The notes below the pieces were generated by a model. The model searched no databases. It had not been told where the DNA came from and was given only the letters and a program-made list of their open reading frames with translations. A stretch of 64,000 nt of DNA. It comes from Escherichia coli (lineage in GTDB: Bacteria; Pseudomonadota; Gammaproteobacteria; Enterobacterales; Enterobacteriaceae). This document shows positions 32,063 through 32,239 of the stretch, piece by piece (the first letter of the stretch is position 1; each line of letters starts with the position of its first letter). A program made the translations under genes and the position numbers. Where the stretch lies: assembly GCF_045037415.1 (NCBI RefSeq), contig NZ_CP173438.1. One strand, given 5' to 3'.

Positions 32063-32239
32063 TAGGCATGATAAGACGCGTCAGCGTCGCATCAGGCATC
32101 TGCGCATGGTGTCGGATGCGGCGCGAGCGCCTTATCCGACCTACGGTTCAGGCCTGTAGGCATGATAAGACGCGTCAGCGTCGCATCAGGCATCTGCGCA
32201 CGGTGTCGGATGCGGCGCGAGCGCCTTATCCGACCTACT
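32063..32239. repeat. Tandem duplication of an ~82-bp REP/BIME unit (copies at 32063-32144 and 32158-32239, period 95 bp, one mismatch)
   Basis: Two near-identical copies of TAGGCATGATAAGACGCGTCAGCGTCGCATCAGGCATCTGCGCA(T/C)GGTGTCGGATGCGGCGCGAGCGCCTTATCCGACCTAC. Confidence 0.75.

What the first reader, a model, noticed from the sequence alone, without database searches (positions are those of the whole stretch)
32063..32239. Tandem duplication of a REP/BIME unit in the prpE-codB spacer
Two ~82-bp copies differing at one base are spaced 95 bp apart, indicating a recent local duplication of a BIME; REP clusters also mark seven other intergenic sites in the window, including junctions where this strain differs in gene content from K-12, consistent with REPs acting as recombination or breakpoint hotspots.
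Basis: seen in the sequence. Interest (0 to 1): 0.3.

Follow-up and report, generated by a model that had tools for sequence, protein, structure and literature searches.

The report
Known REP (BIME-2) array, variable copy number
The two near-identical 83-bp copies are real, but they are an ordinary E. coli REP cluster (a BIME-2 array) after the prpE gene; its unit number differs between strains, and this two-unit form is shared by about a thousand related genomes, so it is not a fresh duplication.

Summary
The repeat is real. There are two 83-bp copies at 32062-32144 and 32156-32238, with a 94-bp period and one mismatch (T32107 / C32201).

Each copy is an inverted pair of REP hairpins: a Z2 type, a 13-nt linker, then a Y type. 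An 11-nt linker joins the two copies. This is the published BIME-2 layout. Both units match Rfam naRNA4 (RF02564) end to end on the prpE-sense strand, above the gathering score. The last REP overlaps the prpE stop codon.

The array is an old copy-number polymorphism, not a strain-specific event.
- A 60-genome spread sample of 5,426 complete E. coli genomes gives 1 to 9 units. K-12 has 2, BL21 has 1 and O157:H7 has 8.
- E. whittamii has 3 units at the same site.
- The exact window allele is also found in Nissle, E2348/69, ATCC 25922 and ST131, and in all 12 sampled genomes with at least 99% identical flanks (a band of 993 records).
- Within that lineage, 38 genomes have one unit and one has three, so gain and loss of 94-bp units continues.
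- This lineage has lost the variant terminal hairpin seen in the other E. coli alleles read and in E. whittamii.

It is not an assembly artefact. The seven other REP sites are confirmed. One of them, lacA/codA, is a REP-bounded indel of the cyn operon. This kind of element is already known, so interest is low.

The parts
32062..32097 (-). Unit 1, Z2-type REP (36 nt). On the - strand it reads GCCTGATGCGACGCTGACGCGTCTTATCATGCCTAC.
   Evidence: Sequence. Second hairpin of the naRNA4 covariance model. The orthologous REP of unit 2 folds at -14.8 kcal/mol as RNA, z -5.2.
32098..32110 (-). Unit 1, 13-nt short inner linker between the REP heads (ATCTGCGCATGGT on +). It contains the only difference between the copies, T32107.
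32111..32144 (-). Unit 1, Y-type REP (34 nt). On the - strand it reads GTAGGTCGGATAAGGCGCTCGCGCCGCATCCGAC.
   Evidence: Sequence. First hairpin of the naRNA4 model.
32145..32155 (-). 11-nt linker between the units (GGTTCAGGCCT on +).
   Evidence: The same linker separates the units in the O157:H7 array; Q65 and E. whittamii carry it with single-base variants, and K-12 has GGTTCAGGTCC.
32156..32191 (-). Unit 2, Z2-type REP.
32192..32204 (-). Unit 2, 13-nt inner linker (ATCTGCGCACGGT), with C at 32201.
32205..32238 (-). Unit 2, Y-type REP. Its GTAG foot contains the prpE TAG stop codon (32235-32237), so in the mRNA the hairpin stem starts 1 nt after the stop.
   Evidence: Y hairpin -18.8 kcal/mol as RNA, z -4.1.
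32235..34121 (-). prpE (propionate--CoA ligase), last gene of prpBCDE. The array lies in its 3' untranslated region.
   Evidence: ORF; annotation of the 100%-identical strain SK1144.
30651..31910 (-). codB (cytosine permease). Its start codon lies 151 bp beyond the array.

Best explanation
This is the prpE-codB BIME-2 element, a tandem array of Y/Z2 REP pairs, present here as two 94-bp periods (four REPs).

Shown here:
- Each unit is a Z2 REP and a Y REP in inverted orientation with a 13-nt inner linker. The units are joined by an 11-nt linker.
- The array starts inside the prpE stop codon and lies on the strand transcribed with prpBCDE.
- The number of units at this locus is polymorphic across E. 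coli (1 to 9 in a 60-genome sample). The array is older than the species, because E. whittamii has it too.
- The window's allele, two 'internal-type' units with a canonical Y REP abutting prpE, is the standard allele of its lineage. That lineage is probably phylogroup B2 and includes Nissle, E2348/69, ATCC 25922 and ST131.
- The lineage has lost the variant terminal hairpin found in all seven distinct non-lineage E. coli alleles read directly and in E. whittamii.
- Inside the lineage the array still gains and loses whole units: 38 genomes have one unit and 1 genome has three.

Inferred from what is known of the family:
- Units are gained and lost in register. The likely routes are replication slippage or unequal recombination between 94-bp direct repeats that form hairpins, or cleavage and strand transfer by the REP-associated transposase TnpA(REP) at CC|TAC sites.
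- As RNA, the hairpins at the end of the prp transcript protect it from 3'-to-5' exonucleases and damp read-through toward codBA. No intrinsic terminator was found in the spacer.
- Because the first hairpin starts 1 nt after the stop codon, it may slow terminating ribosomes and lower PrpE output.
- As DNA, BIME-2 units are preferred gyrase sites.

None of these functional steps was tested here.
For: - Anatomy: sequence and repeat; both units align over positions 1-77 of 77 of Rfam RF02564 on the - strand, 70.2 and 68.3 bits against a gathering score of 59.5, as Y hairpin, 13-nt linker, Z2 hairpin.
- Folding: single REP hairpins and the whole unit fold much better than shuffles: -39.6 kcal/mol per unit, z -4.1; whole array -99.2 kcal/mol, z -5.1.
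- Published definition of BIME-2, with copy number variable between strains: PMC3333891.
- Copy-number series read directly from sequence: BL21 1, MLI108K3 1, K-12 2, window 2, Q65 5, O157:H7 8.
- Spread sample of 60 genomes queried with the flanks only. Array lengths fit 88+94n or 177 bp: 1 unit x11, 2 units window-type x12, 2 units K-12-type x18, 3 x4, 4 x1, 5 x1, 7 x1, 8 x5, 9 x1.
- Lineage-fixed allele: 12 of 12 rows with at least 99% flank identity have a 177-bp array; 993 records in that band; Nissle and E2348/69 identical; ST131 strains identical.
- Ongoing change: 38 records with the one-unit version, on several flank haplotypes; EC-16-526 has [u1][u1][u2].
- Age and ancestral terminal hairpin: (E. 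whittamii: codB, then 3 units with the variant terminal arm, then prpE).
- No terminator-like site on the - strand in the spacer.
- Family functions: gyrase at BIME-2 (PMC6379681); a REP within 15 nt of a stop codon stalls ribosomes (Liang et al. 2015, as summarised in PMC12306157); TnpA(REP) cleavage at CC|TAC and in-vitro BIME recombination (PMC3333891).
Against: - No expression, RNA-end, gyrase or ribosome data exist for this locus in this lineage, so every functional statement is by analogy.
- The linkers were not matched to the published S and s/l/r consensus sequences.
- Neither gyrase-paper supplementary file held as text names prpE or codB.
- The origin of the two-unit allele is unresolved. 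The two units differ at only 1 of 83 positions, against 0 to 8 differences between internal units of other arrays. That favours a fairly late duplication or homogenisation in the lineage ancestor. However, the distinguishing T/C variant is shared with units in other lineages, which favours retention of two old units.
- The population counts come from samples and from BLAST piece-joining, not from a full census.
Confidence: 0.9

Rival explanations
1. A recent, strain-specific tandem duplication of one BIME unit. In this view one 94-bp unit was copied shortly before this isolate was sampled, and one point mutation followed.
For: The two copies differ at 1 of 83 positions. A real recent duplication of this kind exists in one genome, EC-16-526, which carries [u1][u1][u2].
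Against: The identical two-unit allele, with the same T/C difference, is found in Nissle, E2348/69, ATCC 25922 and ST131, and in 12 of 12 sampled genomes of the 993-record band with at least 99% flank identity. K-12 and E. whittamii also have multi-unit arrays here. The T/C variant is shared with units of other lineages.
Confidence: 0.03
2. An assembly artefact, in which a single unit was falsely doubled.
For: Short tandem repeats can be mis-assembled from short reads.
Against: The same 177-bp array is present in hundreds of independently assembled complete genomes. One-, two- and three-unit versions are resolved as distinct alleles.
Confidence: 0.01
3. The two units are functional naRNA4-type small RNAs. 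In this view they are processed from the prpE 3' UTR and, together with HU, bridge cruciform DNA to condense the nucleoid, as reported for REP325.
For: Both units pass the Rfam RF02564 gathering score over the full model, on the transcribed strand. In REP325 the RNAs are also read through from the upstream gene, and the secondary structure matters rather than the sequence (PMC4550694).
Against: The Rfam model in effect describes a Y/Z2 unit, so other BIME-2 units would be expected to match it and the hit says nothing about function. Function has been shown only for REP325. The prp operon is induced only on propionate (general knowledge), so supply of the RNA would be conditional. Unit number ranges from 1 to 9 between strains, with no fixed number retained across the species.
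Confidence: 0.1
4. The window allele is a contraction product. In this view an ancestral array of the form [first unit][internal units][variant terminal unit] lost its terminal unit, and perhaps others, by an in-register deletion between CCTAC ends, leaving two old internal units.
For: The variant terminal arm is present in E. whittamii and in all seven distinct non-lineage E. coli alleles read directly, so its absence here is derived. Both possible deletion end points carry CCTAC, which is a TnpA(REP) cleavage site (PMC3333891). The T/C difference between the units is an old shared variant.
Against: Only 1 of 83 positions differs, which is at the low end of the differences between internal units elsewhere. 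Loss of the terminal unit followed by re-duplication of a single unit explains the data equally well.
Confidence: 0.4

Closest known systems
BIME-2 elements of E. coli (Gilson, Bachellier, Hofnung; reviewed in Ton-Hoang et al. 2012, PMC3333891), including the orthologous prpE-codB element of K-12 MG1655
   Same: Y and Z2 REPs alternate in inverted orientation. There is a short inner linker and a second linker between units. The copies are tandem, well conserved within a locus and variable in number between strains. The element lies outside genes at the 3' end of an operon. K-12 has two units in the same spacer.
   Different: In the window lineage both units are of the internal type, and a canonical Y REP abuts prpE. 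K-12 and the other non-lineage alleles read here end with a variant hairpin (…GGATGCACCGCGCGACGCATCC…AATAACCTAC). The first unit also differs from K-12's first unit at a few positions.
REP325 / naRNA4 (Rfam RF02564; Qian et al. 2015, PMC4550694)
   Same: The unit architecture is the same: Y hairpin, linker, Z2 hairpin, 77 nt. The units are repeated in tandem downstream of a gene and transcribed from it. Both units here score above the family's gathering threshold.
   Different: REP325 has six units in the yjdM-yjdN spacer. HU binding and nucleoid condensation were shown only for that locus. Nothing here tests RNA production or HU binding.
Gyrase-cleaved BIME-2 sites such as sucC-sucB and tldD-yhdP (Espeli and Boccard 1997; Sutormin et al. 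2019, PMC6379681)
   Same: The repeat class is the same, and Y REPs are the preferred cleavage targets.
   Different: Neither supplementary file of that paper held as text names prpE or codB. Gyrase binding at this locus is untested.
Stop-codon-proximal REPs that down-regulate translation (Liang, Rudd and Deutscher 2015, as cited in PMC12306157)
   Same: The REP hairpin starts 1 nt after the prpE stop codon, which is within the 15-nt limit reported for ribosome stalling.
   Different: I could not read the original paper, and no effect on prpE is documented in anything I could read.

Membership tests
BIME-2 (REP cluster) | Built from REPs: imperfect palindromes of 30-40 nt with a conserved GTAG/CTAC tetranucleotide at the foot. 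| tested here: met
   There are four palindromes of 34-36 nt, each ending in CCTAC or starting with GTAGG. Each folds as a hairpin with z of -3 to -5 against shuffles, as both RNA and DNA.
BIME-2 (REP cluster) | Y and Z2 REP types alternate in inverted orientation. | tested here: met
   The Rfam naRNA4 model, whose two hairpins are the Y and Z2 motifs (PMC4550694), aligns over its full length to each unit. The sequences match the Y (…GGATGCGGCG…CGCCTTATCCG…) and Z2 (…GATGCGACGC…GCGTCTTATCA…) patterns.
BIME-2 (REP cluster) | A short S linker inside the pair and an s, l or r motif between pairs. | tested here: inconclusive
   A 13-nt inner linker and an 11-nt inter-unit linker are present and are conserved across strains. 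I had no reference sequences for S, s, l and r to compare them with.
BIME-2 (REP cluster) | Tandem copies whose number varies between strains at a given locus. | tested here: met
   1 to 9 units are seen across E. coli genomes.
BIME-2 (REP cluster) | Extragenic position, typically at the 3' end of a transcription unit. | tested here: met
   The array lies between prpE and codB, directly after prpE on its strand. Only the last 4 nt overlap the gene, including the stop codon.
BIME-2 (REP cluster) | Binding and cleavage by DNA gyrase. | not testable with these tools
   This is known for the class (PMC6379681). Neither of that paper's held supplementary files names prpE or codB.
naRNA4 (Rfam RF02564) | Covariance-model score at or above the curated gathering score. 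| tested here: met
   70.2 and 68.3 bits against 59.5, on the - strand, over model positions 1-77 of 77.
naRNA4 (Rfam RF02564) | Made as a discrete RNA of about 77 nt that binds HU and condenses DNA. | not testable with these tools
   This has been shown only for REP325 (PMC4550694).
Recent strain-specific tandem duplication | The duplicated state is absent from close relatives. | tested here: not met
   The same allele is found in 12 of 12 sampled genomes with at least 99% identical flanks, and in Nissle, E2348/69 and ST131.
Stop-codon-proximal translational REP (Liang et al. 2015) | The REP hairpin lies within 15 nt downstream of a stop codon. | tested here: met
   The stop codon is at 32235-32237 and the Y stem starts 1 nt downstream in the mRNA. 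The criterion is taken from PMC12306157.
Stop-codon-proximal translational REP (Liang et al. 2015) | Lower protein output through ribosome stalling. | not testable with these tools
   There are no data for prpE.

The most novel reading that the evidence does not exclude
The lineage-specific swap of the ancestral terminal hairpin for a canonical Y REP fused to the prpE stop codon may be functional rather than neutral. It moves the hairpin from about 6 nt to 1 nt after the stop. The resulting two-unit array is also held constant across roughly 950 genomes, while other lineages range from 1 to 9 units. Under this reading the change would alter PrpE translation termination, prp mRNA stability or insulation of codBA in this lineage.
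Probability: 0.05. Interest if true: 0.3.

Novelty: already known. Interest (0 to 1): 0.1.

Why it matters
It matters little. The finding is a textbook BIME-2 array, and its variable copy number is a published property of the class. Three things here are of modest use.
- The prpE-codB array behaves as a fairly stable, lineage-informative repeat marker: 1 to 9 units, with 8 units in all four O157:H7-type genomes looked at and 2 units in this lineage.
- The locus gives clean examples of single-unit loss and gain on a fixed background.
- The neighbouring lacA/codA junction shows a 3.7-kb operon indel bounded by direct BIME copies, which supports REP-mediated rearrangement.

Tried and rejected
- A fuzzy-regex unit count timed out. 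I replaced it with Hamming scans and motif splitting.
- An 83-nt query across the Y|prpE junction was meant to count window-type junctions. The tool joins upstream Y arms to the prpE piece, so its figure for at least 80% coverage (2,140) is inflated and I did not use it.
- The three-unit query reveals only the [u1][u1][u2] form. A [u1][u2][u2] form would rank below about 950 tied two-unit rows and could not be seen.
- The copy of NC_000913 in this collection lists no REP feature in the spacer. I therefore could not confirm the K-12 REP element number from annotation and showed the K-12 array from sequence instead.
- Supplement look-ups for prpE or codB found nothing: none held for Ton-Hoang 2012, no mention in Sutormin 2019 or RepRanger.
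- Searches for Liang et al. 2015 found nothing, and the paper is not held. Its result is cited second-hand from PMC12306157.
- A search for papers naming prpE, codB and REP together found nothing about this element.
- The promoter and terminator scan found nothing relevant in the spacer.
- The genome-contig scan returned only four loci. Only E. whittamii and one divergent 'E. coli' record are useful as outgroups. The C. amalonaticus locus has a different neighbourhood, and the 'Citrobacter MAG' sequence looks like E. coli.

Full report
**1. The observation.** The window holds two 83-bp copies at 32062-32144 and 32156-32238. They are 94 bp apart start to start and identical at 82 of 83 positions: T at 32107 against C at 32201. 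Tandem Repeats Finder reports period 94, 1.9 copies, 98% matches and score 347.

The array lies between codB (30651-31910, -) and prpE (32235-34121, -). Its last four bases overlap prpE, including the TAG stop codon at 32235-32237.

**2. Anatomy.** On the + strand each copy reads:
- GTAGGCATGATAAGACGCGTCAGCGTCGCATCAGGC, a Z2-type REP in reverse orientation;
- a 13-nt linker;
- GTCGGATGCGGCGCGAGCGCCTTATCCGACCTAC, a Y-type REP.

The copies are joined by GGTTCAGGCCT. On the - strand, the strand of the prp mRNA, each unit aligns over all 77 positions of Rfam RF02564 (naRNA4). The scores are 70.2 and 68.3 bits against a gathering score of 59.5, and the alignment reads Y hairpin, linker, Z2 hairpin.

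Single REPs fold as hairpins in both RNA and DNA, with z of -3 to -5 against shuffles. A whole unit folds at -39.6 kcal/mol (z -4.1), and the array with short flanks at -99.2 kcal/mol (z -5.1). No terminator-like site lies on the - strand in the spacer.

This is the published BIME-2 layout: z2 and y REPs, a short inner linker, a flanking linker and tandem copies. [quoted passage not shown]

**3. Comparison across strains.** Spacers read directly give the following unit counts:

| Strain | Units |
|---|---|
| BL21 | 1 |
| MLI108K3 | 1 |
| K-12 MG1655 | 2 |
| Window strain | 2 |
| Q65 | 5 |
| O157:H7 | 8 |

A query made only of the two 700-bp flanks, listed as a 60-row spread over 5,233 matching records, gives array lengths that fit 88+94n or 177 bp:

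| Array | Rows |
|---|---|
| 1 unit | 11 |
| 2 units, window type (177 bp) | 12 |
| 2 units, K-12 type (182-191 bp) | 18 |
| 3 units | 4 |
| 4 units | 1 |
| 5 units | 1 |
| 7 units | 1 |
| 8 units | 5 |
| 9 units | 1 |
| IS621 insertion (flanks split) | 3 |
| Odd or partial | 3 |

The locus is therefore a species-wide copy-number polymorphism.

**4. The window allele is a lineage allele.**
- All 12 sampled genomes whose flanks are at least 99% identical carry the 177-bp array, and 993 records fall in that band.
- Nissle and E2348/69 have exactly the same two units, with the same T/C difference.
- ST131 strains such as JJ1887 and O25b:H4 have it too.
- The window also carries ipbA/fimX and hyxRAB, and its best match is SK1144 at 100%. 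The lineage is probably phylogroup B2; that assignment rests on my own knowledge of these strains and markers.
- Within the lineage, 38 records carry a one-unit version on several flank haplotypes, for example strains 998, NC101 and IMT5155.
- One genome, EC-16-526, carries three units, [u1][u1][u2].

Loss and gain of whole 94-bp periods is therefore still going on, but the two-unit state long predates this isolate. The hundreds of independent complete assemblies that carry it exclude an assembly artefact.

**5. Which state is derived.** In the seven distinct non-lineage E. coli alleles read directly, the unit next to prpE ends in a variant hairpin (…GGATGC[AG]CC[AG]…GACGCATCCGACAATA[AC]C[CT]TAC) rather than a Y REP. 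E. whittamii, a separate species, has codB, three units with that same variant terminal arm, and then prpE. The array and its variant terminal arm are therefore ancestral, and the window lineage has lost the arm.

Whether the present pair is a re-duplication of one surviving unit or two retained old units is not settled.
- For a late duplication or homogenisation: the units differ at 1 of 83 positions, against 0 to 8 between internal units elsewhere.
- For retention of two old units: the distinguishing T/C variant is shared with units of the O157:H7 and Q65 arrays.

Both candidate deletion end points carry CCTAC, which is a mapped TnpA(REP) cleavage site (PMC3333891). That fits the contraction route but does not prove it.

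**6. How it most likely works (inferred from the family, not tested here).**
- In the prp transcript the REP hairpins should block 3'-to-5' exonucleases and attenuate read-through toward codBA.
- The first hairpin starts 1 nt after the stop codon. That is within the 15-nt limit reported to stall terminating ribosomes and lower translation (Liang et al. 2015, as summarised in PMC12306157).
- As DNA, BIME-2 units, and especially Y REPs, are preferred gyrase cleavage sites (PMC6379681).
- The naRNA4 reading (HU-dependent DNA bridging; PMC4550694) is possible. The Rfam hit follows from the unit being a Y/Z2 pair, which is what the model describes, so it is not evidence of function.

Seven other REP sites are confirmed. 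Two of them sit where gene content differs from K-12.
- *lacA/codA.* K-12 has Y+Z1 BIME copies in the codA-cynR spacer and a Z1 REP on the same strand in the cynX-lacA spacer. The window has a single hybrid BIME that aligns to the codA side up to the Z1 REP and to the lacA side from it. This is what recombination between direct REP copies would leave.
- *tauA/frmR.* The window has a REP, but K-12 has none in the 6.6-kb yaiO-yaiS region. This junction gives no support.

**8. Verdict.** The feature is real but ordinary: a known class of element at a locus where K-12 has the orthologous array. The 'recent duplication' reading is not supported for this strain. Novelty is 'already known' and interest is low.

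Noticed in passing
L012 4818-5798 (XH988); also L016 4318-5298 and L017 2149-3129: An IS621 (IS110-family) copy sits inside the first Z2 REP of the prpE-codB array, right after GTAG, in all three 'split-flank' rows of the 60-row sample. About 325 genomes have flanks that were not joined. From my own knowledge, IS621 is known to target REPs.
   Followed up: partly
L011 about 805-835 (strain BS-04): A run of 31 T occupies exactly the point where IS621 is inserted in the otherwise identical XH988 array. BS-01 from the same study has an oversized (317-bp) match here too. This may be an assembly or polishing artefact, or an odd footprint.
   Followed up: no
window 29258-29377 (lacA/codA spacer); L014 205-448 and 3909-3922: The cynRTSX operon (3.7 kb in K-12) is absent. 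The window's spacer is a hybrid of the BIME copies that flank cyn in K-12, which fits a deletion or insertion by recombination between direct REP copies.
   Followed up: yes
L014 177-575 (K-12 codA-cynR spacer): K-12 itself carries a 200-bp tandem duplication (97% identical) that includes a Y+Z1 BIME. This is a second local example of a duplicated BIME.
   Followed up: partly
window 10975-11012 and 11052-11100: The tauA/frmR spacer, where K-12 has yaiO-yaiS, holds one Z2-like REP. Next to it is a 19-bp inverted repeat with a G6/C6 core (ATACTATAGGGGGGTATGC … GCATACCCCCCTATAGTAT) just upstream of frmR. I take this to be the FrmR operator, which is my own inference.
   Followed up: no
L019 (record titled E. 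coli SCPM-O-B-8794), the roughly 480 bases before the prpE stop: This is a divergent array of at least five units, with a period of about 100 bp and longer linkers (GGTGGGCGCAGG…). It ends in a lone Z2 REP with no terminal hairpin.
   Followed up: no
L010 (E2348/69): prpE is annotated 75 nt shorter than usual (1,812 against 1,887 nt), although the REP array is identical to the window's.
   Followed up: no
window 60943-64000: ipbA/fimX, hyxR, hyxA and hyxB follow betA. From my own knowledge this island is typical of extra-intestinal B2 strains. No REP was found at that junction.
   Followed up: no
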